From Chloroflexota bacterium (GTDB taxonomy: Bacteria; Chloroflexota; Dehalococcoidia; SM23-28-2; RBG-16-64-32), in the NCBI GenBank assembly GCA_022564695.1, contig JADFKX010000003.1:1-37498 (forward strand): DNA of 37,498 nucleotides. Direction: 5' to 3'. The notes beneath the pieces were generated by a model. That model was not told where the DNA came from. It was given only the letters and a program-made list of their open reading frames with translations, and did no database searches. The position numbers and the translations under genes were made by a program. Shown here piece by piece: positions 26,637 through 36,935 of this stretch. The first letter of the stretch is position 1. Each line of letters begins with the position of its first letter.

Positions 26637-26840
26637 TTGTCTGTTTTCTCACTATATGTTGATCCAACGGCTGCGGGCCTGGGCCTCCAGATGTTGCTTG
26701 GTGGGGTTGTCGGTGGTCTAGTGACGATTAAGCTTTTCTGGGGACGTGTTTTCTCGATGTTCCGCAGGACCGAGGAAGAGACGGAAGACACTTCGGCTGG
26801 CGGCGAGGAGCCGAGCGAAGCGATGGAAGAAGAGGCCTAG
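26637..26840 (+). CDS. small membrane protein of the Y[IV]DP-x6-Q type
   Basis: YVDPTAAGLGLQMLLGGVVGGLVTIKLFW plus acidic tail; GAGGT SD before TTG. Confidence 0.75.
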   Translation: MSVFSLYVDPTAAGLGLQMLLGGVVGGLVTIKLFWGRVFSMFRRTEEETEDTSAGGEEPSEAMEEEA

Positions 26841-26946
26841 CCGTTCTGACAGACGGCTGGAACTGGGCCCCGCCCCGGCCAAGGCACGATTCCGAACAAG
26901 CGCTACGCCTGGTTACGGCGTTTGGGCTAAGCGCGGGCTAAAACGA

Positions 26947-28347
26947 ATGGTACATCGGGACCCAGGGTCCTTTCGGGACCCCGCAGGAGGGGTCTTGCTG
27001 GGCGACCGTCGAGTATACCGCTATTTCACCGGCCAGCACGCGACGGAGTTCACGGCCTTGCTTGAGACTGGGCTCCTGGACTCGTTTGTGAAGAGCGGCG
27101 CGGTGATAGGGACCAAGCCCATCGCGATCGAGGAGGCTGCTGAGCTATATCGCGCGGCCCCCGACATAGGCTTGGTAGTTGAGCACCCGCGGATACCGTT
27201 CATCTCCTACGTATACGAGTGGCCGTTTGAGATGCTAAAGGCGGCGGCGATCCGCTCTCTGGAGATCCTGCAAACGTCCTTAGACAAGGGTTTCATCCTG
27301 AAGGACGCAACGCCTTACAACATCCAGTTTGTGGGGCTCAACCCTCTGCTGATCGACGTGGGATCCTTCGAGCGGTACGAGGAAGGGATACCCTGGATGG
27401 GCTATTCCCAGTTCTGCCACACCTTTCTTAATCCGTTACTTCTCCAGTCCATCACCGGCGTCCCGTTTCAGATGTGGATGCGCAGCTCTCTGGAGGGGAT
27501 AGACCCAGTCCACCTCAACAGTCTAATCCCCCTTAGACACAAGCTGCGGAAGAACGTCTTTATCGACGTCGTCCTCCAGGCGTGGTTCAGTCGGAGGTAT
27601 GTATCGCGGCGCAGTGATGCGCCGAAGCTTCGAGAACGATCCATTCCAAAGGGTGTCATCACGGGGCTTGTTAATCGGCTGACGAAGAGCGTGTCGGGGC
27701 TGAAACGGCGAGGTAAGGCTCATTCTACCTGGCTGGACTACGAGGAGCAGTGTCACTATGAGCCGGAAGCGCTGCAGTTCAAGGATCGCTTCGTAGAGGA
27801 AGCGCTGGCGAAGGCGAGGCCACGGATGGTCTGGGACTTGGGCTGCAATGTGGGGCGCTACAGCGTGATGGCTTCGCGCTGCGCTGATTACGTGGTAGCC
27901 ATGGACAGCGACGAGGCGACGGTTGGCGCCCTATACGAGCGGATAAGGGGCCAGCAGACTAACGTCTTGCCCCTGACGGTCGACCTGATGAACCCCTCGC
28001 CCGGCCAGGGCTGGGCTCAGGAGGAGAGGCGGGGTCTGGGAGAACGCGGCGCCGCCGATTTCGTCCTCTGTCTCGCCCTGGTGCACCATCTGGCGATCAG
28101 CGGCAACGTTCCCCTGAGTAAGATCGTAGAGTGGCTCTCTACCATCACGGAGGCGGGCGTTGTGGAGTTCGTGCCGAAGAGCGACCCGATGGTGCAAGCG
28201 CTGCTGCGCACCCGTCAGGATGTGTACAGCGGCTATACGCAGGACGCCTTCGAGGAAGCTCTCAGAGAGCAGTTTGAGATAACTGATGTGGCTTGCCTGC
28301 CCAAGTCAGAGCGAGTTCTCTACCAGTTTTGCCATAAGCAGCGTTAG
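26947..28347 (+). CDS. NoeA-like protein: kinase-like N-domain plus class I SAM methyltransferase
   Basis: SFRDP, ISYVYEW, LKDATPYNIQF, IDVGSF; WDLGCNVG, LALVHHL, EFVPKSDPMV. Confidence 0.85.
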   Translation: MVHRDPGSFRDPAGGVLLGDRRVYRYFTGQHATEFTALLETGLLDSFVKSGAVIGTKPIAIEEAAELYRAAPDIGLVVEHPRIPFISYVYEWPFEMLKAAAIRSLEILQTSLDKGFILKDATPYNIQFVGLNPLLIDVGSFERYEEGIPWMGYSQFCHTFLNPLLLQSITGVPFQMWMRSSLEGIDPVHLNSLIPLRHKLRKNVFIDVVLQAWFSRRYVSRRSDAPKLRERSIPKGVITGLVNRLTKSVSGLKRRGKAHSTWLDYEEQCHYEPEALQFKDRFVEEALAKARPRMVWDLGCNVGRYSVMASRCADYVVAMDSDEATVGALYERIRGQQTNVLPLTVDLMNPSPGQGWAQEERRGLGERGAADFVLCLALVHHLAISGNVPLSKIVEWLSTITEAGVVEFVPKSDPMVQALLRTRQDVYSGYTQDAFEEALREQFEITDVACLPKSERVLYQFCHKQR

Positions 28348-28350
28348 CTC

Positions 28351-29955
28351 ATGAGAGTGAGCAAGCTGTCCGGCTATAGAGAGCTGCTGTACGCAGCGCT
28401 GATCATCTTCAGCGCCGTGAGCCTCGCTTCCCTGGAGTTCATGAAGAATGCGTTTCCTATCGCAGATGCGTTGCTGGTAACCAAGACCACCGTGATCTAT
28501 ATGATCGTTCTGGTGCAGGTCTTGCCCGCTCTTGCGCTGTTGGGTGCTGACCGCCTCATCGCTGCGCGATACGGCGCCGGCCGGCGCCTTCGGGTGTTCC
28601 GCTCGGTGCTATTCGTCGTGGCCGTCGTACTGATACTGCGTCAGTTGCAGCTCTACTGGGGCCCGGCGAGCGACTTCGCGGATTCGGTGAGTTCATCGGG
28701 CTGGGTGCTGGTGGTGCTTGTCGACCTCACGATTCTTGCAGCCGTAGTCGGCTTCGCCGTCTGGATGTTCAGGGGCCTGGCCATGTTCTTCGCCTACATG
28801 TCCCCGGTGGCGATAGTCATGACGGTCCTCATTCCATCCCAGGTACCAACGGGCGAGAGCCTCCCGGAGACGTATGGTCAGGAGGTGGTGACAGCGTCAC
28901 GGTCAGAATCTCAGCCAGCCGTTTTTGTACTTGTATTCGACGAACTAGGATATGACGTGCTCCTTGACGATGGGAAGGTGGACGCGGAGAGCTTCCCTAA
29001 CATCGCCGCACTGGCAGAGGACGGGGTCTGGTTTACCAACGCTACCACCAATAACTATTGGTCTTTGTTCGTCCTGCCAACCATCATCGATCCAGTCAAA
29101 TCGCTGGCCGAGCGTTTTGACATCAGGCTCTATACGCAGTTCCGGTTTGTGGAGCAACGATACGTCAAGGCTTGTGGCGAGGTCATGACGTGTCGGGGCT
29201 ATGGCTACTTGACCGAGAACGACCAGCTGCGGGTGGCCGGTAACCTGGCTCTGCGGTCCTTCTACCAGGCGACCCCGAAGCCGGTGGAGTGGGCCATAAG
29301 CCGCCCAATGGGTTGGCTACTGGACCGCCTGGGCTGGGCGTATCCGTCCGTGGATAGCCAGGGCTTCCATACGCTTACCAAGAGACAGTTTGATGTGTTT
29401 CTAGATGACATCACGGGTCGAGACGCGTTGGGACGCATACATGTGTTGCACCTGTTATTACCCCATCACCCGTTCGCATTCAGCGGAGAGGGGAACGCCC
29501 TCAGCAACGGCTGTTCTTGCGCCGCTGGCCAGGACTTTCAGCCGGAGAAATACCGGCAACAGTCGATGTACGTGGACGTTCTGGTTGGCAGGCTTATGGA
29601 CAAGCTAAAGAGAGAAGGAATTTACGACGAGGCGGTCATTGTTCTCACGGGGGATCACGGACCGCGGCCCTACGTCCCCGGGCCACAGGCGCCCCTGGAA
29701 GACTCCATCGCGCGTGTCCCGTTGGTGATCCGCGCTCCCGGCTTAGGCAGCTCTGTGTCCGATGTGGACTACCAGCACATAGATTTCGGCCCAACGTTGA
29801 TGGATATCCTGGGGCTGCCGCCGATCAGCGATGCCGAGGGGGTCTCGGCCTTCAGCGAGGAGCGGCCGCAGCGGGATAAGGTATTTCGGGTGTTCAGTAG
29901 TACGTTCATCCGTAGCGAAGAGGACGATAGCTGGCAGCTTGTTCTGGATGAGTGA
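28351..29955 (+). CDS. membrane-anchored sulfatase/LtaS-like alkaline-phosphatase-superfamily enzyme
   Basis: about 5 N-terminal transmembrane helices; VFDEL, LLLPHHPF, TGDHG, RVPLVI, IDFGPT. Confidence 0.85.
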   Translation: MRVSKLSGYRELLYAALIIFSAVSLASLEFMKNAFPIADALLVTKTTVIYMIVLVQVLPALALLGADRLIAARYGAGRRLRVFRSVLFVVAVVLILRQLQLYWGPASDFADSVSSSGWVLVVLVDLTILAAVVGFAVWMFRGLAMFFAYMSPVAIVMTVLIPSQVPTGESLPETYGQEVVTASRSESQPAVFVLVFDELGYDVLLDDGKVDAESFPNIAALAEDGVWFTNATTNNYWSLFVLPTIIDPVKSLAERFDIRLYTQFRFVEQRYVKACGEVMTCRGYGYLTENDQLRVAGNLALRSFYQATPKPVEWAISRPMGWLLDRLGWAYPSVDSQGFHTLTKRQFDVFLDDITGRDALGRIHVLHLLLPHHPFAFSGEGNALSNGCSCAAGQDFQPEKYRQQSMYVDVLVGRLMDKLKREGIYDEAVIVLTGDHGPRPYVPGPQAPLEDSIARVPLVIRAPGLGSSVSDVDYQHIDFGPTLMDILGLPPISDAEGVSAFSEERPQRDKVFRVFSSTFIRSEEDDSWQLVLDE

Positions 29956-31499: not shown

Positions 31500-31949
31500 C
31501 TAGCGGCCCTGGCGCTCGATCTCCGCCACCTTCTCCAGGCGGCGGCGGTACCGTTCCTCTCCTGACAGGCGGGCGTCTACGTACGCTTGCACCAACTCCA
31601 GCGCCAGCTGTGAGTCGATGACGCCGGCGCCGAGGCAGAGGACGTTCATATCGTCGTGCTCCACGCCCTGGCGAGCGGAGTAGGTGTCGTGGCAGATGGC
31701 GGCGCGGACCCCGTGTATCTTGTTCGCCGCGATGCTGGCGCCCACGCCGCTACCGCAGACCAGGACGCCGCGCTCCGCGCGGCCGTCCTGGAGCGCCTGG
31801 CCGATGGCGCGGGCGTAGTCCGGATAGTCGACGGAGTCGGCGTTGTGGGTGCCCACGTCCAGGACTTCGTGGCCGGCCTGTTTGAGGTTGGCCGCGATCT
31901 GGTCCTTCATTTCGTAGCCGCGGTGGTCGGCGCCGACGACGATGCGCAT
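31500..31949 (-). CDS. rpiB: ribose-5-phosphate isomerase B
   Basis: GADHRG, DYPD, CGSGVG, AANK, EHDDMNVLCLG. Confidence 0.95.
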   Translation of the reverse strand: MRIVVGADHRGYEMKDQIAANLKQAGHEVLDVGTHNADSVDYPDYARAIGQALQDGRAERGVLVCGSGVGASIAANKIHGVRAAICHDTYSARQGVEHDDMNVLCLGAGVIDSQLALELVQAYVDARLSGEERYRRRLEKVAEIERQGR

Positions 31950-31969
31950 CTCAGTCCTCTTCTGTCATC

Positions 31970-32959
31970 CTACAGCCAGCGGTGTTGACGGTACCAGGCC
32001 GCCGTGAGCGAGGCCCCCTCTTTGAGGGTGACCCGGGGCGTCCAGCCCAGGTCGCGGCTGATCTCGTTGTGGGAGCAAACCCAGTGGCGCTGGCTCATCT
32101 CCTTGACCTTATCGCGAGTGAAGATGACGGCCTGCCGGCGTAGGCGGCCGTAGGTCTCGCTGAGGAAGGCGGCGGCGGTGAACGCCCAGGGAGGGGAGTT
32201 AATGCGCAGCGCTTTCCTGCCGTTGGCCTGCTCTACCGCGCCCAGCATCTGGCGCCAGGTGTAGACTGCGCCGTCGTCCAGGGTGTAGGTGGCGATGGGG
32301 GCCTCGTCAGAGGCGGTGGCAGCCAGGGCGACCGCGCGGGCCGCATCCTCGACGTAGACGCAGGAGATTGTGTTGGCGCCGTCGCCCAGGAGGGGCGCCA
32401 GCCGCCAGCGGGCAAGCCGGAAGAAGGTAAGGAGCTCGCGGTCGCGGGGGCCGTAGATGACGGGAGGACGGAAGATGACGGCCCCGACCCCGGCGGGTTT
32501 GCCGGCCCAGTCGCGCACCATCTCCTCGGCCTTGAGCTTGCTGCGTCCGTAGGCGGTAACCGGGGTGGCGGGGGCGTCGAGGGGGCGCGGCCGGCCGTCC
32601 TCGCTGGGGCCGTGAGCGGCGAGGCTTGATATGAAGACGAAACGGGGGGCGGCTTCGGCGGAAGCCAGGGCGGAGAGAAGGTTGGCGGTGCCCTCCGCGT
32701 TCACGGAGTTGAACTCGGCGGCGGAACGCGCCTTCACCAACCCAGCGGCGTGGACGACGGCGTCAACGCCCGCGACGGCGGCTGGGAGAGTGTCCGGCTG
32801 GGTGATGTCTCCCAACGCTTCCTCGATCTCTAAGCCGCGGAGGAACGAGCGGTCGCTCGTGCGTCGCGCCAGCACGCGGACGGTATGGCCTTCGCGGGCG
32901 AGCTGCTCGGCGATGTGGGAGCCGAGGAAGCCGGTGGCGCCGGTGACCAGGAATTTCAT
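31970..32959 (-). CDS. extended SDR NAD(P)-dependent reductase/epimerase; candidate ceramide or 3-ketosphinganine reductase
   Basis: TGATGFLG, SSLAA, YGRSK, RPPVIYGP; ATGA-coupled to the bCerS-like gene. Confidence 0.85.
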   Translation of the reverse strand: MKFLVTGATGFLGSHIAEQLAREGHTVRVLARRTSDRSFLRGLEIEEALGDITQPDTLPAAVAGVDAVVHAAGLVKARSAAEFNSVNAEGTANLLSALASAEAAPRFVFISSLAAHGPSEDGRPRPLDAPATPVTAYGRSKLKAEEMVRDWAGKPAGVGAVIFRPPVIYGPRDRELLTFFRLARWRLAPLLGDGANTISCVYVEDAARAVALAATASDEAPIATYTLDDGAVYTWRQMLGAVEQANGRKALRINSPPWAFTAAAFLSETYGRLRRQAVIFTRDKVKEMSQRHWVCSHNEISRDLGWTPRVTLKEGASLTAAWYRQHRWL

Positions 32960-34089
32960 GACGTAAGGGGTTTCTCGTAGAGGCGGTAGGTCTTGTCCAG
33001 GTGGCAGCCGACGTTGCGGATGATCGTGTTCACGGCGTTGTTGTCCTCCAGCGTCCAGGAGAACTCAGCCGAGTGGTAGCCGCCATCGCGGGCGGCACGG
33101 TAGACCTGGTCACAGAGGAGATAGGCCATGGCGAGGTATTTGCGGGTGCGGTATTCCTTCTTGACGCCCAGGATCATCAGGCGGCCGGTCTTGAGGCCGC
33201 GAACCTTCAGCCGCCACAGCAGCTTCGCCCAGCCGAAGGGGAAGAGGTGGCCGTTCAGGTCGCGGATTGCCTCGTTGATGTTGGGTACGGCGAGGATGAC
33301 GCCCGCGGTTTCTCCGTCCACCTCCACGATTGCAATCAGGCTGGTATCGACAATCGGGCGCAGATCTTCTGCGAGGTGGTGCGCCTCGGCGGGCGTCACG
33401 GGGACGAACCCCCAGTTCCCACTCCAGGTGGAGTTGAAGACTTCGAGTATAGTGGCGATCTCTTCATTGAAGCGTTTGATGTTGCCCTGGCGAATGTTGA
33501 CGTCCGGCCGCTGGCGGAGCTCCTCCACGGCGCGGCGCGCCTTTTGGGGTACGATGGCCGTATCGTAACGCCAGGAGTAGAGGTCCTTGGCTTTCTGGAA
33601 GCCCGCGCCCTCGATGAGTCGCCCGTAGTATGGCCGCGAGTAGGGCATCATGATCATGGGCGGCGTGTCGAAGCCATCAATCAGGAGCCCTACCTCCTGG
33701 TTGATGGAGAAGCTCAGGGGCCCGCGGATGGCCTCCATGCCATGCTGCCGGAGCCAGTCCTCAGCCGCTTCAAATAGCGCCTGAGCCGTCTCCGCCTCAT
33801 CCTCCGATTCGAAAAAGCCGAAGAAGCCGGTGCGCTCCTCGTGGTACCGGTTGTGCTCGTGGTCCACCTGGGCCGAGATGCGCCCGACTACCTGGCCGTT
33901 ACGGTGGGCGAGGAAGAGTTGGGCGTCGGCGTGTTGGAGGAAGGGGTTGGTCTTCGGTTTGAACCGTTTGCGCTCCAGATAGAGGAGCGGGGGCACCCAG
34001 TTGGGGTCTTCCCGGTAGAGGTGGAAGGGCAGCTTGATGAAGGCGTTCAGGTCACGGCGGCCGGAAACCGGCGACACAGTCACCGACAT
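32956..34089 (-). CDS. double-GNAT (YghO-like) acyltransferase; bacterial ceramide synthase-like
   Basis: FIKLPFHLY..DPNWVPPL, NPF, VGRISA, GFFGFFE, GLLIDGF..PP.IMMPY, NWGFVP, SWTLEDN, KTYRLY; ATG 34089 after GAGGAG. Confidence 0.85.
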   Translation of the reverse strand: MSVTVSPVSGRRDLNAFIKLPFHLYREDPNWVPPLLYLERKRFKPKTNPFLQHADAQLFLAHRNGQVVGRISAQVDHEHNRYHEERTGFFGFFESEDEAETAQALFEAAEDWLRQHGMEAIRGPLSFSINQEVGLLIDGFDTPPMIMMPYSRPYYGRLIEGAGFQKAKDLYSWRYDTAIVPQKARRAVEELRQRPDVNIRQGNIKRFNEEIATILEVFNSTWSGNWGFVPVTPAEAHHLAEDLRPIVDTSLIAIVEVDGETAGVILAVPNINEAIRDLNGHLFPFGWAKLLWRLKVRGLKTGRLMILGVKKEYRTRKYLAMAYLLCDQVYRAARDGGYHSAEFSWTLEDNNAVNTIIRNVGCHLDKTYRLYEKPLTS

Positions 34090-34102
34090 GATTGGGCTCC
34101 TC

Positions 34103-35395
34103 TTAGGGTAGGAGGCCGTGCTTGCGTCCCAGGGTCTGAAACTGTTCAAGGACGAACTCTATCTGTTCGTCCTTGTGGGTGGCCATGCAGCTGGTGCGGA
34201 GCAGGGCCTTACCCATGGCCACGGCGGGGAAGATAACGGGGTTGGTGTACACACCGCAGTCGATGAGGTCTCGCCAGAATGTGACGGTGGCGAGCTCGTC
34301 GCCGATACTGATGGGGATGATCGACGTCTGGGATTCGCCGGTGTCGAACCCCATATCGTTCAGTCCGCTGCGAAGCGTTTCCCCGAGGCGCTGTACGGTC
34401 TCCACCAGCTCCGGCTCGTCAATGAGCACCTCCAGGGAGGCGAGGGCGGCGGCGGCCGAGGCGGGGGGCAGGCTGGCGGAGAAGATCATGGAGCGGCCGA
34501 AGTGCTTGATCCAATCCAGCACGGCGCGGCTGCCGGCGACGAAGCCGCCAACGGAGGCGAAGGACTTGGAGAAGGTGCCGACCGTCAGATCAATCTTCCC
34601 ATCTATGCCGAAGTGGCTGGCGGTTCCGCGGCCACCGGTGCCGATAACGCCGATGGCGTGGGCGTCGTCTACCAGGAGGCGAACCTGATGGCGCTGGCAC
34701 ACCTCGACGATCGCGGGCAGGTCGGCGATGTCGCCGCCCATGCTGAACACGCCGTCGATGATTACGAGGCAGGTTTTTTTCTTATCCAGGCGGCGGAGGA
34801 TCGTGTCCAGATGCCTGGCGTCGTTGTGGCGGAAGCGCAGCATCTCACCTTCCGCGAGGCGGCAGGCGTCGTAGATGCTGGCGTGATCCGCTTTGTCGAC
34901 GACAGCCACGGAGCGGCTGTCAACCAGGGATGAGATGACGCCGAGGTTTGTCTGGTAGCCGGTGGCGAACACCACGGCCGCCTCCGTGCCCAGGAACTTG
35001 GCGATCCTGTTCTCAAGCTTCTCGTGCAGGTGAGTGGTGCCGTTGAGAAGACGGGAGCCGGTTAAGGAGGTGCCGTGCTCGCTGATGGCGTCCTGGGAGG
35101 CCTGAACGACGCGGGGATGCCTTGTAAGCCCCAGATAGTTATTGGAGCCCAGCATAATCACTTCGCGGCCGTAGATCATTGCTACGGCGCCGTCGTTGCG
35201 GTCCAGGGGCTGGAAGAAGGGGTAGAGTCGAGCGGCGCGGGCCTGCTCTGGGAGCTTGAAGCTGTGGACCTTGGCGAAGATGTCGCGCCCGTCCCCGTCG
35301 TCGTAGCGACCGGGCAGCATGCCTTCAATGGTGAGACCGGCGAAGGCGAGGGCTGCGGTCTGCGGATCGGGTTTCGGCTCAGCCTGTTTGGCCAT
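34103..35395 (-). CDS. spt: serine palmitoyltransferase-like alpha-oxoamine synthase
   Basis: MLGSNNYLGL, GSRLLNGT, TGYQTNLG, DHASI, DGVFSM, DDAH, GTFSKS (PLP Lys). Confidence 0.8.
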   Translation of the reverse strand: MAKQAEPKPDPQTAALAFAGLTIEGMLPGRYDDGDGRDIFAKVHSFKLPEQARAARLYPFFQPLDRNDGAVAMIYGREVIMLGSNNYLGLTRHPRVVQASQDAISEHGTSLTGSRLLNGTTHLHEKLENRIAKFLGTEAAVVFATGYQTNLGVISSLVDSRSVAVVDKADHASIYDACRLAEGEMLRFRHNDARHLDTILRRLDKKKTCLVIIDGVFSMGGDIADLPAIVEVCQRHQVRLLVDDAHAIGVIGTGGRGTASHFGIDGKIDLTVGTFSKSFASVGGFVAGSRAVLDWIKHFGRSMIFSASLPPASAAAALASLEVLIDEPELVETVQRLGETLRSGLNDMGFDTGESQTSIIPISIGDELATVTFWRDLIDCGVYTNPVIFPAVAMGKALLRTSCMATHKDEQIEFVLEQFQTLGRKHGLLP

Positions 35396-35406
35396 AAGTC
35401 GTCTCT

Positions 35407-35454
35407 AGTTTGGTTACCTACGGCCTAATTGTCAACCCGCCAATACGATTGGCG
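35407..35454 (-). promoter_or_regulatory. putative spt promoter plus upstream inverted repeat
   Basis: minus strand TTGACA(35435-35430)-17 nt-CAAACT(35412-35407); CGCCAAT-acg-ATTGGCG at 35438-35454. Confidence 0.45.
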
Positions 35455-35584
35455 ATTATGAGTCAAGTGTCTAATCGGGTACGTTCGTTGAATATACAGC
35501 GGATGCCCGTTGACGGAGCCGCGGTCAGCGCGTTCGTTTGGGACGTGGCTGAGCCACTCGTCGGCTGTTCGTGACTGGAGTTGG

Positions 35585-36463
35585 CTAGTCCGCGATAGGC
35601 GGGTCAGCCTCGCGTTCCGCCAGCCGCGCCTGTGCCGCAGCCGGCGTGGGTGCGACAGACGGAGAGGCTGGACGCATGGCGATGAAGTACCAGGAGGCCA
35701 ATACTAGGTATGTGGGGTAGGCGATGACCTCCAGCAGCGATGGGTTGCCGTTGTATCCAAGCAGTGCTTTCAACCAGAGGCCGACGCCACTGCCATCGTT
35801 AACGATGTTGTTGATGTCCCAGACGTGCTCGATGGAGATAGGCAGTAGGGCGGCCTCCTGAAGCTCGTGAATGCCGTGTATCAGTAGCCCTGCCGCGAAG
35901 AAGATGAGAAGGGTGCCGGTCACGTTGAAGAACACCCGCAGGTTCAGGCGATAGCCGCCGCTGTAGATTCCCCACGACAGGCCAACGGCGACGACTATCC
36001 CTGCCGTTGCGCCGATGGTGGATTCCAGCGGTGTTGATGTCCGTGTCGCGGCGAACAAGAAGACGGCCGTTTCCAGACCTTCTCTCAGGATGGCGCTGAA
36101 CGGTATCAGGGCCAGCGCAAACACCGACCCCATCCCGATCGCCTGCGCCATCTCGTGTTCCAGGCTCTTCTTGATCCCGGCCGACTGCCGCTTCATCCAG
36201 ACGATCATCCAGCTCAGGACGCCGACCGCCGCCAGCATAGCAAGCCCTTCGAACGCCTCCGCCCCCCTGCCCTCGAACTCGCCGGCGATGGCAAAGATCG
36301 CTGCTCCTACGACGAGGCTGATGGCCACGGCGGCCAGGGCCGCCAGGAGCACCGTCCGGAAGTGACGCCTCTGGTTGGTGGACTTGAGGTAGGCCAGGAT
36401 GATAGCGACGATGAGCCCGGCCTCTAGGCCTTCTCGCAAGGTTATGAGGAAGCTGCCACCCAT
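35585..36463 (-). CDS. FTR1/EfeU family iron permease
   Basis: two REGLE motifs, about 7 transmembrane helices, WMIVWM, GIHELQEA. Confidence 0.93.
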   Translation of the reverse strand: MGGSFLITLREGLEAGLIVAIILAYLKSTNQRRHFRTVLLAALAAVAISLVVGAAIFAIAGEFEGRGAEAFEGLAMLAAVGVLSWMIVWMKRQSAGIKKSLEHEMAQAIGMGSVFALALIPFSAILREGLETAVFLFAATRTSTPLESTIGATAGIVVAVGLSWGIYSGGYRLNLRVFFNVTGTLLIFFAAGLLIHGIHELQEAALLPISIEHVWDINNIVNDGSGVGLWLKALLGYNGNPSLLEVIAYPTYLVLASWYFIAMRPASPSVAPTPAAAQARLAEREADPPIAD

Positions 36464-36473
36464 TGGAGACTGC

Positions 36474-36530
36474 CTACCGAAAACGGGTGGGGATGGAACG
36501 GGCGGTATTGGAGAGGGAGCGGTTCGGCAT
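36474..36530 (-). other. upstream mini-ORF (18 aa, MPNRSLSNTARSIPTRFR)
   Basis: strong SD GGAGGTGA 5 nt before the ATG; stops 10 nt before the FTR1 ATG. Confidence 0.5.
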
Positions 36531-36547
36531 GCTGGTCACCTCCAGGT

Positions 36548-36594
36548 TAATGTCCGTCTTAACTTAGCGCTTGCTTAATATTAGCGCGTACTTA
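36548..36594. promoter_or_regulatory. tandem DtxR/MntR-like operators
   Basis: TTAGCGCTTGCTTA (36564-36577), TTAGCGCGTACTTA (36581-36594), weaker TAATGTCCGTCTTA (36548-36561). Confidence 0.55.
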
Positions 36595-36623
36595 CCTTAG
36601 ACCTGTGCACGTGCATAAGTCAA
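36594..36623 (-). promoter_or_regulatory. sigma70-type promoter of FTR1
   Basis: minus strand TTGACT-18 nt-TAAGGT; spacer contains the palindrome TGCACGTGCA. Confidence 0.55.
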
Positions 36624-36629
36624 GAGCTT

Positions 36630-36647
36630 TTGGGAAATATTTCGCAA
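36630..36647. promoter_or_regulatory. Rex-like operator
   Basis: TTGGGAAATATTTCGCAA, 2 differences from TTGTGAAATATTTCACAA. Confidence 0.55.
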
Positions 36648-36731
36648 ATTGGACGATACGACTGCGCGCAGTGTGGCGCCGCTAAGGGGCAGCCACAGTC
36701 GCTGAAGCCCCAGGATGGCGATGGAGCGCGT

Positions 36732-36935
36732 CTACATCTCGACGGCGGGCTTGCCGGCGCCTATGTACTTGGGTGGGTCCTCGTCGAACATATGCTTGCA
36801 GCCGGGGGCGCAGAAGTAGTAGGTCTCGCCCTCGTGCTCGCTGGTGGCGCGGGCGGTCTCCTTTTCCACCGTCATGTGGCAGACGGGGTCGATGGCGGTG
36901 GCGGGCTTCTTGCGGAAGATGTCCAGGATACCCAT
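36732..36935 (-). CDS. YHS domain protein
   Basis: IDPVCHMTV...YYFCAPGCK..F..DP..Y; ATG 36935 after AAGGAG. Confidence 0.92.
   Translation of the reverse strand: MGILDIFRKKPATAIDPVCHMTVEKETARATSEHEGETYYFCAPGCKHMFDEDPPKYIGAGKPAVEM

What the first reader, a model, noticed from the sequence alone, without database searches (positions are those of the whole stretch)
31970..35395. Spt-bCerS-reductase operon: candidate sphingolipid/ceramide pathway in a probable Chloroflexota bacterium
Seen: three tightly coupled genes (13-nt gap, then ATGA overlap): an oxoamine synthase with SPT-type GSRLLNGT/GTFSKS, a YghO-like double GNAT and an extended SDR. Established: bacterial ceramide synthesis (defined in Caulobacter) uses Spt, the GNAT-fold bCerS and the reductase CerR, and is known mostly from diderm phyla. 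Inference: this lineage makes ceramides or related amino-lipids, which would be notable for a group generally lacking an outer membrane. No dedicated ACP or acyl-CoA ligase is present in the window.
Basis: partly seen in the sequence, partly recalled or inferred. Interest (0 to 1): 0.8.

Follow-up and report, generated by a model that had tools for sequence, protein, structure and literature searches.

The report
Ceramide-synthesis operon in a Dehalococcoidia genome
Three tightly packed genes in this sediment Chloroflexota bacterium match the three enzymes that bacteria use to build ceramide, a real and well-supported pathway call, but one already predicted for this phylum from metagenomes.

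Summary
Three minus-strand genes at 31970-35395 have a 13-nt gap and an ATGA overlap, and carry the motifs GSRLLNGT and GTFSKS.

- **Gene 1** is an alpha-oxoamine synthase. In a 70-row tree it falls in a strongly supported clade with E. coli and Caulobacter-type Spt, apart from Kbl, BioF and ALAS.
- **Gene 2** is a tandem GNAT. It is 44% identical over its full length to E. coli YghO, which the literature equates with Caulobacter bCerS (CC_1154).
- **Gene 3** is an extended SDR. Its best hit in E. coli and in Caulobacter endophyticus is the CerR-position gene beside spt.

The order Spt-bCerS-CerR recurs in 8 of 80 related loci from four phyla. No ACP or acyl-ACP synthetase accompanies it, so acyl-CoA is the likely donor.

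The host MAG (86.8% complete) has no other oxoamine synthase and no BioB, BioD, Omp85 or LpxC match.

Spt-like genes occur in 46 of 301 sampled genomes of the same class.

The product is untested. Novelty is modest, because Ding et al. 2024 already reported Spt-like genes in 218 Chloroflexota MAGs.

Verdict: a real feature and a new member of a known kind. Interest 0.35.

The parts
34103..35395 (-). Spt-like alpha-oxoamine synthase (430 aa), the predicted first step: amino acid (probably L-serine) plus long-chain acyl thioester gives a 3-keto long-chain base.
   Evidence: Pfam Aminotran_1_2, 213 bits. Best NCBIfam model is SPT-CFB at 448.5 bits, against bioF 379.5 and Kbl 351.9; all are below their cut-offs. 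Best PDB matches are S. multivorum SPT at 352 bits, then S. wittichii and S. paucimobilis SPT. It lies in a 52-row Spt clade with SH-aLRT 99. Active-site and motif columns match Spt.
34090..34102 (-). 13-nt intergenic spacer with a GAGGAG ribosome-binding site in front of the GNAT start.
   Evidence: Read directly from the sequence.
32956..34089 (-). YghO/bCerS-family tandem GNAT (377 aa, P0001), the predicted N-acyltransferase that adds the second acyl chain.
   Evidence: 44% identical to E. coli YghO. 46% identical to the C. endophyticus copy 7.5 kb from spt. YghO is listed with CC_1154 in PMC9386255. Tandem-GNAT fold. It is the only copy in the genome.
31970..32959 (-). CerR-like extended SDR (329 aa), the predicted NAD(P)H-dependent 3-keto reductase. 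Its start overlaps the GNAT stop as ATGA.
   Evidence: Pfam Epimerase, 136.8 bits. 31% identical, E 2e-39, to the epimerase-family gene inside the E. coli spt cluster. Its best hit is the cluster gene in E. coli (117 bits; next 68) and in C. endophyticus (126 bits; next 59). It is the best hit of the E. coli gene in G000.
31500..31949 (-). rpiB (ribose-5-phosphate isomerase B), 20 nt downstream on the same strand. It may be co-transcribed but is not part of the conserved module.
   Evidence: NCBIfam PRK05571, 182 bits, above its cut-off. It is syntenic only in the near relative L089 and is absent next to the module in L005 and L108.
35396..35584 (-). Upstream intergenic region between efeU and the synthase, the presumed promoter region.
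   Evidence: ORF map. The sigma-70 consensus scan found no site, so the promoter is inferred only.

Best explanation
This is a compact, ACP-independent Spt-bCerS-CerR operon that gives a Dehalococcoidia-class Chloroflexota bacterium the core pathway to dihydroceramide.

Step 1 (inferred from family): the PLP-dependent Spt-like synthase condenses L-serine with a long-chain acyl thioester to 3-ketosphinganine. The donor is most likely acyl-CoA, because no dedicated ACP or acyl-ACP synthetase accompanies the gene.

Steps 2 and 3 (inferred): the tandem-GNAT bCerS/YghO homologue N-acylates the long-chain base, and the extended SDR (CerR homologue) reduces the 3-keto group. The order of these two steps is disputed even in Caulobacter and cannot be decided here.

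Shown here: gene structure, translational coupling, homology of all three products to the E. coli and Caulobacter-type cluster proteins, phylogenetic placement of the synthase, the fold of the GNAT, conservation of the module across phyla, and its family-wide presence in the host's relatives.

Not shown: any enzymatic activity or any lipid.
For: **Gene structure and coupling.** A 13-nt gap with GAGGAG and an ATGA overlap link the three genes.

**Synthase.**
- Its best PDB matches are the SPT structures 8guh/3a2b at 352 bits. The other scores are 2x8u 297, 2jg2 288, an AOS/Kbl-type enzyme 255, Kbl 234, cysteate acyltransferase 228 and BioF 200.
- In the 70-row tree it lies in a 52-row clade (SH-aLRT 99). 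That clade holds all 21 Spt rows assigned to the ACP type, including E. coli and C. endophyticus. It also holds the rows labelled GNAT-adjacent and the other Chloroflexota Spt-like rows.
- The 9 Kbl rows, the BioF rows, ALAS and a third Chloroflexota clade lie outside that clade.
- In a 14-sequence table, Asn at the position of S. multivorum N85 and the motifs GSRxxNG and GTFSKS occur in 7 of 7 Spt or Spt-like rows and in 0 of 7 Kbl, BioF, ALAS or third-clade rows.
- Residues equivalent to S. multivorum N52, G80, S81, H138, S185, D210, A212, H213, T241, S243, K244 and A274 are conserved (numbering from PMC10196870 passages).

**GNAT.** It is 44% identical to YghO. In an E. coli UPEC strain, yghO sits beside a fatty acyl-AMP ligase, an epimerase-family SDR, an ACP and spt. 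PMC9386255 lists yghO with CC_1154.

**SDR.** Best-hit tests in both directions point to the cluster SDR.

**Synteny.** The figures come from 80 loci fetched with the GNAT.
- 40 hold an Spt or Spt-like gene and 32 hold both that gene and the SDR.
- 8 have the identical adjacent order. These are Dehalococcoidia, Polyangiaceae, three Eisenbacteria and three Gemmatimonadota loci.
- 20 of the 40 have no ACP or ligase.

**Own genome**. There is a single AOS-family gene. BioB and BioD have no match, and the BioA matches are weak (24-29% identity).

**Distribution.**
- Spt-like genes occur in 38 of 401 sampled Chloroflexota genomes, and 37 of those 38 also hold a GNAT homologue (cross-tabulated by hand).
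- They occur in 46 of 301 genomes of the same class, including 6 of 7 other genomes of the host's family.
Against: No biochemical or lipid data exist for this clade.

The synthase falls below the curated cut-off of every NCBIfam Spt equivalog (448.5 vs 640, 398.3 vs 500, 324.3 vs 670).

NCBIfam has no model that names the GNAT or the SDR. The SDR's top models are HpnA and OleD, far below their cut-offs.

The amino-acid specificity of Spt-like enzymes is not readable from sequence. S. multivorum SPT also turns over Ala and Gly at low efficiency (PMC10196870 abstract, seen in the search listing).

The YghO family is broader than ceramide synthesis.
- 34 of the 71 GNAT-positive Chloroflexota genomes had no Spt-like match at E <= 1e-90.
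- Three genomes of genus g71 were checked. They have a GNAT at 44-46% identity but only an unlinked AOS at 38-39% identity.

The promoter and terminator scan was uninformative. Co-transcription therefore rests on spacing alone.
Confidence: 0.78

Rival explanations
1. The enzymology is the same but the building blocks differ. The synthase would use alanine, glycine or another amino acid, or unusual acyl chains. The product would then be a 1-deoxyceramide or another N-acyl amino-alcohol lipid rather than canonical dihydroceramide.
For: Black Sea lipidomics found 1-deoxyceramides attributed to bacteria with Spt-like genes (PMC11334938 passages). The synthase is below all Spt equivalog cut-offs. 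At the positions of S. multivorum F83 and M271 it has Leu and Ile.
Against: All polar residues that the S. multivorum structure paper names around the serine carboxylate and hydroxyl are conserved (N52, G80, S81, H138, S243). The F83 position also varies among accepted Spt enzymes: Met in E. coli and Ile in Caulobacter.
Confidence: 0.12
2. The synthase is a housekeeping BioF or Kbl (biotin synthesis or threonine catabolism), and the two neighbours are unrelated.
For: It is the only AOS-family gene found in the MAG. It scores 379.5 bits against the bioF model and 351.9 against Kbl.
Against: It lies outside the Kbl and BioF groups in the tree and lacks their motifs. E. coli BioB and BioD have no tblastn match in the genome (86.8% complete). 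The gene is translationally coupled to bCerS and CerR homologues, and this arrangement recurs across phyla.
Confidence: 0.02
3. It is a sulfonolipid (capnine-type) pathway. The synthase would be a cysteate-C-fatty acyltransferase and the SDR a dehydrocapnine reductase.
For: A cysteate-C-fatty acyltransferase structure (28eh) is among the PDB matches at 228 bits. Capnine synthesis also pairs an AOS with a reductase (recalled, not from a call).
Against: The match is 124 bits weaker than the match to SPT. The abstract of PMC13692747 says that cysteate enzymes form a distinct branch with a remodelled pocket. The neighbour is a bCerS/YghO homologue.
Confidence: 0.02
4. It is a small biosynthetic cluster for a diffusible amino-ketone or amino-alcohol signal or secondary metabolite (CqsA-like), not a membrane lipid.
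For: AOS enzymes such as CqsA make signals. The CAI-1 synthase structures match at 133 bits.
Against: That match is very distant compared with SPT. The module is conserved family-wide in the host's relatives and across many phyla together with bCerS and CerR homologues. This fits a core lipid better than a strain-specific metabolite.
Confidence: 0.03

Closest known systems
Caulobacter crescentus ceramide genes spt (CC_1162), bcerS/cerS (CC_1154) and cerR (CC_1164), with acpR (CC_1163) and aasR (CC_1165)
   Same: The same three enzyme families are present. Against Caulobacter endophyticus, used here as stand-in, the synthase is 42% identical to the Spt gene. The GNAT is 46% identical to the copy 7.5 kb from spt. 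The SDR is 36% identical to the gene beside spt.
   Different: No AcpR or AasR was found in the window, and no convincing match in the MAG. The three genes form one coupled operon instead of being spread over about 10 kb. The host has no Omp85 or LpxC match. In Caulobacter, CerR is reported to be periplasmic (PMC11324152 passage), a compartment this host probably lacks. C. crescentus itself was not compared.
E. coli yghO-aasR-cerR-acpR-spt cluster (BL21, UPEC; disrupted next to IS5 in K-12)
   Same: YghO is 44% identical, Spt 40% and the cluster SDR 31%. According to PMC9386255 (abstract and passages), E. coli BL21 Spt forms 3-oxo-sphinganine.
   Different: E. coli Spt passes the NCBIfam NF047599 cut-off (597 vs 500) and prefers acyl-AcpR. 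The window's enzyme passes no cut-off and has no ACP partner. yghO is divergently placed in E. coli.
Sphingobacterium multivorum serine palmitoyltransferase (PDB 8GUH, 3A2B)
   Same: It is the closest solved structure (352 bits; query residues 41-419 aligned). The active-site residues are conserved. It is a soluble enzyme that uses palmitoyl-CoA (abstract in the search listing).
   Different: The window's protein has an N-terminal extension of about 33 residues relative to the aligned chain. It has Leu and Ile at the positions of F83 and M271.
'Spt-like clade B' with co-localised bCerS and CerR in Black Sea metagenomes (Ding et al. 2024, PMC11334938)
   Same: The concept is the same: an Spt-like gene outside the classical Spt clade, validated by neighbouring bCerS and CerR, and reported for 218 Chloroflexota MAGs (passages).
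   Different: That paper and its 2025 follow-up (PMC12619533) name Anaerolineae and Caldilineae. This window is from a Dehalococcoidia-class MAG found in sediment runs. Their supplements were closed, so I cannot tell whether this family was among the 218.
Myxobacterial module (Sorangium, Polyangiaceae)
   Same: These are the nearest non-Chloroflexota relatives of the synthase in the tree (7-row clade, SH-aLRT 99). Polyangiaceae locus L016 has the identical adjacent order AOS-GNAT-SDR without an ACP.
   Different: In Sorangium sp. So ce375 the Spt-like gene lies about 6 Mb from the GNAT-SDR pair. These hosts are diderm.

Membership tests
Bacterial serine palmitoyltransferase (Spt; alpha-oxoamine synthase subfamily) | Fold-type I PLP enzyme with the catalytic Lys and the PLP-binding His, Asp and His | tested here: met
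   K277, H171, D243 and H246 align with S. multivorum K244, H138, D210 and H213. Pfam PF00155 scores 213 bits.
Bacterial serine palmitoyltransferase (Spt; alpha-oxoamine synthase subfamily) | Groups with characterised Spt rather than with BioF, Kbl or ALAS in a phylogeny | tested here: met
   It lies in a 52-row clade (SH-aLRT 99) that contains the E. coli and Caulobacter-type Spt. Kbl, BioF and ALAS lie outside (quick IQ-TREE, 70 rows).
Bacterial serine palmitoyltransferase (Spt; alpha-oxoamine synthase subfamily) | Score above a curated Spt equivalog cut-off (NCBIfam NF047600, NF047599, NF047603) | tested here: not met
   448.5 vs 640, 398.3 vs 500 and 324.3 vs 670. The Sorangium (457 bits) and Polyangiaceae (459.5 bits) Spt-like proteins also score below the 640 cut-off of their best Spt model.
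Bacterial serine palmitoyltransferase (Spt; alpha-oxoamine synthase subfamily) | Spt-type motifs GSRxxNG and GTFSKS | tested here: met
   Present in 7 of 7 Spt or Spt-like rows, including the window. Absent in 7 of 7 Kbl, BioF, ALAS and third-clade rows.
Bacterial serine palmitoyltransferase (Spt; alpha-oxoamine synthase subfamily) | Condenses L-serine with a long-chain acyl thioester | not testable with these tools
   Needs an enzyme assay.
Bacterial ceramide synthase bCerS (CC_1154 / YghO family) | Full-length homology to CC_1154 or YghO | tested here: met
   44% identity, E 5e-107, to K-12 YghO. 46% identity to the C. endophyticus copy near spt. The equivalence of YghO and CC_1154 is taken from the PMC9386255 figure legend. 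C. crescentus CC_1154 itself was not available to compare.
Bacterial ceramide synthase bCerS (CC_1154 / YghO family) | GNAT-fold acyltransferase | tested here: met
   The AF2 model has pLDDT 95.3 and a tandem-GNAT fold. The top Foldseek hits are 2wpw, 5kf1 and 7q3a, with E around 1e-14 to 1e-15. At sequence level Pfam GNAT reaches only 21.7 bits.
Bacterial ceramide synthase bCerS (CC_1154 / YghO family) | Genomic association with spt and cerR | tested here: met
   It is coupled to both in the window. 40 of 80 GNAT loci hold an Spt or Spt-like gene. 37 of 38 Spt-like-positive Chloroflexota genomes hold a GNAT homologue. Caveat: 34 of 71 GNAT-positive genomes had no Spt-like match.
Bacterial ceramide synthase bCerS (CC_1154 / YghO family) | N-acylates a sphingoid base or 3-ketosphinganine | not testable with these tools
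   Needs an assay.
Ceramide reductase CerR (CC_1164 family, extended SDR) | Extended SDR with TGxxGxxG and YxxxK | tested here: met
   T6-G7-x-x-G10-x-x-G13 and Y137-x-x-x-K141, read from the translation. Pfam Epimerase 136.8 bits.
Ceramide reductase CerR (CC_1164 family, extended SDR) | Orthology with the SDR inside characterised spt clusters | tested here: met
   Its best hit in E. coli is the cluster gene (117 bits; next 68). In C. endophyticus it is the gene beside spt (126 bits; next 59). The E. coli gene's best hit in G000 is this ORF (98.6 bits; next 74.3). Identity is only 31-36%.
Ceramide reductase CerR (CC_1164 family, extended SDR) | Reduces the 3-keto group of the long-chain base or oxo-ceramide | not testable with these tools
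   Needs an assay.
Five-gene 'Rhodobacteria' system (AasR and AcpR feeding Spt) | Dedicated ACP and acyl-ACP synthetase next to spt | tested here: not met
   No hit to the E. coli cluster ACP in the whole MAG. Hits to the ligase are generic, about 25% identical, and lie on other contigs. 20 of the 40 loci with an Spt or Spt-like gene showed neither gene.

The most novel reading that the evidence does not exclude
Whole families of Dehalococcoidia, bacteria without recognisable outer-membrane machinery that live in marine and other sediments, may make ceramide-type sphingolipids with a minimal, ACP-independent three-gene module. Bacterial sphingolipids would then not be tied to outer-membrane function. 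Dehalococcoidia could also be a substantial, so far uncultured source of the sphingolipids seen in anoxic sediments.
Probability: 0.6. Interest if true: 0.5.

Novelty: new member of a known kind. Interest (0 to 1): 0.35.

Why it matters
Bacterial sphingolipids were long treated as an oddity of a few diderm groups. This window gives a clean, gene-level example of the complete core module in a Dehalococcoidia-class bacterium with no match to the outer-membrane markers Omp85 or LpxC.

The module is conserved across several families of that class: 46 of 301 sampled genomes, and 6 of 7 other genomes in the host's own family.

That supports, independently and at class level, the metagenome-based proposal that Chloroflexota contribute sphingolipids in anoxic sediments.

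It also offers a very small construct (three genes, no ACP or ligase) for heterologous tests of the disputed order of acylation and reduction.

It does not open a new kind of system.

Tried and rejected
- **Papers not held.** The key paper on bacterial ceramide synthesis (Stankeviciute et al. 2022) was not held under its DOI or PMC id. What I say about it comes from other papers' passages.
- **Literature search.** A search for 'bacterial ceramide synthase' plus 'GNAT' found 0 papers.
- **Family libraries.** At E up to 10, NCBIfam gave the GNAT only a 13.4-bit aminoglycoside acetyltransferase match. Pfam gave only the weak GNAT match.
- **PDB by sequence.** The search with the GNAT found nothing meaningful.
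- **First alignment.** The 48-sequence alignment was too diverse for the search for related loci. A 12-sequence alignment worked.
- **Promoter and terminator scan.** There were 0 promoter-like sites, and terminator-like sites were no more frequent than in shuffles.
- **Head-group transferase idea.** I considered that the nearby sulfatase/LtaS-like membrane protein (28351-29955) might be a sphingolipid head-group transferase. The Caulobacter CPG paper passages mention no sulfatase-family enzyme. The gene is also not found next to the module in L005 or L108. I dropped the idea.
- **Biotin role.** Rejected, because BioB and BioD have no match.
- **Expression.**
  - One RNA-Seq run (X20) and two runs filed as 'metatranscriptomic WGA' (X3, X19) hold similar sequence. 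X20 and X3 were laid; X19 was not.
  - In X20, contigs at least 90% alike lie on parts of all three genes (records 17-24).
  - These are contigs. DNA carry-over is not excluded and no record spans a gene junction. I therefore do not count this as evidence of transcription or of an operon transcript.
  - Stretches without cover in X20 mean nothing.

Full report
**1. Observation**

The window is contig C46 of a 2.06-Mb MAG in 240 contigs, 86.8% complete and 0.84% contaminated.

- An aminotransferase class I/II protein of 430 aa lies at 35395-34103.
- A 13-nt spacer containing GAGGAG follows.
- A 377-aa protein starts at ATG 34089 (P0001).
- A 329-aa protein follows, whose ATG overlaps the previous TGA as ATGA (32959-31970).

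GSRLLNGT and GTFSKS are present in the first protein. TGATGFLG and YGRSK are present in the third. rpiB follows 20 nt downstream on the same strand. efeU lies 189 nt upstream.

**2. The synthase**

Pfam places it in PF00155. Among NCBIfam models the best is the Bacteroidota-type Spt model NF047600 at 448.5 bits. Next come the beta-proteobacterial Spt model (398.3), bioF (379.5), the BioF/Kbl subfamily (369.8) and Kbl (351.9). None reaches its curated cut-off.

Against solved structures, the four best distinct proteins are all serine palmitoyltransferases. S. multivorum scores 352 bits, S. wittichii 297 and S. paucimobilis 288. Then come a Kbl/AOS-type enzyme (255), Kbl (234), a cysteate-C-fatty acyltransferase (228) and BioF (about 200).

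I built a 70-row tree (quick IQ-TREE, LG+C20+F+G4, SH-aLRT only). The rows were synthases found next to GNAT homologues in 80 public loci, paralogues from E. coli, Caulobacter endophyticus and Sorangium, and Chloroflexota paralogues. I named the paralogues by NCBIfam.

Five duplicate rows and one truncated row were dropped beforehand. They are listed in the script.

- The window's protein lies in a 52-row clade with SH-aLRT 99.
- That clade contains all 21 Spt rows that I assigned to the ACP-linked type. They include E. coli Spt, which is above the NF047599 cut-off, and C. endophyticus Spt at 677 bits.
- It also contains the rows labelled GNAT-adjacent and the other Chloroflexota Spt-like rows.
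- The nine Kbl rows, the BioF rows, ALAS and a third Chloroflexota clade lie outside.
- Within the clade, the Dehalococcoidia sequences are sister to Sorangium/Polyangiaceae (SH-aLRT 99).

Two group labels were loose. L089 was labelled 'next to GNAT' although its GNAT is deleted (section 7). L063 was placed in the ACP group although no ACP is visible in its locus.

A 14-sequence column table shows the Spt-type motifs in 7 of 7 Spt or Spt-like rows and in 0 of 7 other rows. It also shows conservation of the residues that the S. multivorum structure paper names around PLP and serine (PMC10196870, passages).

**3. The GNAT**

Sequence libraries barely see it: Pfam GNAT gives 21.7 bits, NCBIfam nothing useful, and PDB nothing by sequence. 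Yet it belongs to a large family.

- 7998 of the 8000 scored candidates matched in the word-indexed search. The named top hits are Chloroflexi or Dehalococcoidia MAG proteins.
- 8589 cluster representatives match at E <= 0.001, and 1723 at E <= 1e-30.

It is 44% identical over its full length to E. coli K-12 YghO.

In K-12, yghO abuts an IS5. In a UPEC chromosome the same gene sits beside a fatty acyl-AMP ligase, an epimerase-family SDR, an acyl carrier protein and a PGAP-named spt, followed by extra lptG and lptF copies.

The figure legend of PMC9386255 lists 'aca: CC_1154, yghO ECD_02850' and 'epi: CC_1164, ECD_02852' as the genes required for dihydroceramide synthesis. Its abstract states that E. 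coli BL21 Spt forms 3-oxo-sphinganine.

The AlphaFold2 model built from a 48-sequence alignment is confident (pLDDT 95.3, pTM 0.92). Its best PDB neighbours are tandem-GNAT enzymes. The 'YghO-like double GNAT' description holds.

**4. The SDR**

It is an extended SDR. Its best NCBIfam models (HpnA, OleD) are far below their cut-offs. The E. coli cluster SDR shows the same pattern.

- It is 31% identical (E 2e-39) to the E. coli cluster SDR over about 312 residues.
- Searched against whole genomes, its best hit in E. coli is that cluster gene (117 bits; next 68).
- In C. endophyticus its best hit is the gene next to spt (126 bits; next 59).
- Conversely, the E. coli cluster SDR finds this ORF as its best hit in the MAG (98.6 bits; next 74.3).

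**5. Conservation of the module**

I fetched 80 loci with a 12-sequence GNAT alignment and counted neighbours.

- 40 loci hold an Spt or Spt-like gene within the fetched flanks, 41 hold the SDR and 32 hold both.
- Among the 42 loci with more than 8 kb on both sides, 28 hold the Spt-like gene.
- Two architectures appear.
  - In twenty loci the Spt gene comes with the ACP and/or the ligase, and the GNAT lies some kb away. These are Caulobacter, Phenylobacterium, other Pseudomonadota and some Thermodesulfobacteriota.
  - In twenty loci there is neither ACP nor ligase.
- Eight loci have exactly the window's adjacent order on one strand. These are one Dehalococcoidia locus (L005), one Polyangiaceae locus (L016), three Eisenbacteria loci and three Gemmatimonadota loci.

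Beyond the three genes, nothing from the window is conserved next to the module in the more distant Dehalococcoidia loci.

**6. The host and the distribution**

In the MAG, the synthase is the only AOS-family gene. E. coli BioB and BioD find nothing, and BioA finds only aminotransferases at 24-29% identity. Omp85 (PF01103) and LpxC (PF03331) find nothing, while the control genomes respond. At 86.8% completeness these absences are 'not found', not proof.

In a sample of 401 Chloroflexota genomes:

- 71 have a GNAT match at E <= 1e-30.
- 38 have an Spt-like match of at least 406 bits. A clear gap separates these from the next class, which scores at most 326 bits.
- By hand cross-tabulation, 37 of the 38 also have the GNAT. 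The exception, G303, is 82% complete.
- These tallies include the unpublished genome G231, which is positive for both. Without it the counts are 70 and 37 of 400, and 36 of 37. The unpublished genome G149 is also in the sample and gave only a weaker match below the gap.

In a sample of 301 genomes of the host's class:

- 46 have an Spt-like match at E <= 1e-110.
- These include 6 of 7 other genomes of the host's family, 17 of 17 of family f22 and 5 of 5 of f90.
- There were 0 of 10 in the other families of the host's order.

The class is Dehalococcoidia by the public titles of the closest loci. L005 lies at the same coordinates as a same-family genome.

Similar DNA occurs in sediment and marine-sediment runs of 11 studies.

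**7. Caveats that cut against a simple reading**

(a) The YghO family is wider than ceramide synthesis. 34 of the 71 GNAT-positive genomes had no Spt-like match. Three checked genomes of genus g71 have a GNAT at 44-46% identity but only an unlinked synthase at 38-39% identity. The functional call therefore rests on the operon context, not on the GNAT alone.

(b) In a closely related bin (G004), one contig is syntenic with the window from rpiB to beyond efeU. There the GNAT is reduced to a short in-frame remnant that still overlaps the SDR start.

- The same bin also holds a window-like intact fragment (GNAT 97% identical) and a 79%-identical copy elsewhere.
- The bin is a co-assembly and may mix strains.
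- Contigs about 90% alike in three runs join 33084 to 34023. This is a second deletion allele with different ends.
- Populations without the in-operon acyltransferase therefore exist.

(c) No activity, product or transcript has been shown.

**8. Mechanism**

The most likely reading (0.78) is an ACP-independent Spt, bCerS and CerR route to dihydroceramide in the cytoplasm or at the cytoplasmic membrane of a bacterium without an outer membrane.

- Acyl-CoA is inferred as donor from the lack of a dedicated ACP and ligase. It also fits the affinity of the synthase to the S. multivorum type, which uses palmitoyl-CoA (abstract in the search listing).
- The gene order matches the reaction order proposed by one group (acylation before reduction; PMC11087976 passage). 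Gene order is not evidence, and the alternative order (PMC11324152 passage) is equally compatible.

The main rival (0.12) keeps the enzymology but changes the amino acid or acyl chains, giving 1-deoxy or other amino-lipids. BioF/Kbl, sulfonolipid and signal-molecule readings are each at or below 0.03.

**9. What is known**

- PMC11334938 (passages) defined an 'Spt-like' clade by co-localised bCerS and CerR. [quoted passage not shown]
- PMC12619533 (passages) repeats this for Anaerolineae and Caldilineae.
- A search for 'Dehalococcoidia' with 'sphingolipid' listed 5 papers. None has either term in its title or abstract (listing only). A search for 'Chloroflexota' with 'serine palmitoyltransferase' listed 3 papers, all from the same line of work.
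- I therefore found no paper that treats this pathway in Dehalococcoidia.

**10. Verdict**

It is a new member of a known kind.

The value added here is threefold: the explicit link from YghO to bCerS, the class-level distribution, and the ACP-free compact architecture shared with Myxococcota, Gemmatimonadota and others.

Noticed in passing
L089 (G004 contig C26), aligned to window 31592-33007 and 34015-36885; also L095 and L004: A close relative's contig has the same efeU-Spt-SDR-rpiB locus. There the GNAT is reduced to a short in-frame remnant ORF that still overlaps the SDR start. The same co-assembled bin also holds an intact window-like fragment (GNAT 97% identical). A third GNAT copy (79% aa) lies on another contig and carries about 73 nt of the SDR 5' end.
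   Followed up: partly
window 33084-34023: Contigs about 90% alike in three runs (X1, X2, X3) join 33084 to 34023 with four other letters between. This skips most of the GNAT and is a second deletion allele, with ends different from the one in L089. The side lengths are 24, 24 and 79 letters, so another organism or an assembly artefact is not excluded.
   Followed up: no
G227:C1:368064-369191, G052:C14:121701-122816, G193:C23:300531-301643: Genomes of one Chloroflexota genus (g71, about 6 Mb) carry a YghO-family GNAT at 44-46% identity. Three of them were checked. Their best oxoamine synthase is only 38-39% identical and lies on another contig or about 2.6 Mb away. The family therefore probably has roles outside ceramide synthesis.
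   Followed up: partly
L098, L105, L106 (Chloroflexota family f29): A third oxoamine-synthase clade is sister to the whole Spt clade. Its motifs are GVRTLAGT and GTLSKT. Its NCBIfam scores are nearly equal for Spt-CFB, BioF/Kbl and bioF. Function unknown.
   Followed up: no
G399:C44:222105-223285: An Spt-like gene is split into two overlapping frames (49% and 54% identity to the two halves of the window's protein). This is a frameshift or an assembly error.
   Followed up: no
P0122, P0219, P0191, P0228: Much longer relatives of the GNAT exist. One is 784 aa with two matched stretches. Others are 940, 630 and 648 aa, which suggests duplicated or fused forms.
   Followed up: no
G001 (Caulobacter endophyticus) C6:30787-31911 and C25:28758-29876: This Caulobacter has two YghO-family paralogues, 46% and 44% identical to the window's GNAT. 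Only the first lies near spt.
   Followed up: no
window 26746-29955 (+): There are two adjacent genes. The first ORF has no Pfam or NCBIfam match. The second is a 534-aa protein with a C-terminal sulfatase/LtaS-like domain (Pfam PF00884, 65.9 bits). They are not found next to the module in the more distant relatives.
   Followed up: partly
L002 (E. coli K-12 3129043-3131340) versus L003 (UPEC): In K-12, yghO abuts an IS5 and is followed by yghQ. In the UPEC strain the ligase, SDR, ACP, spt, lptG and lptF genes lie beside yghO. yghO DNA is present in 4549 of 5426 complete E. coli genomes.
   Followed up: partly
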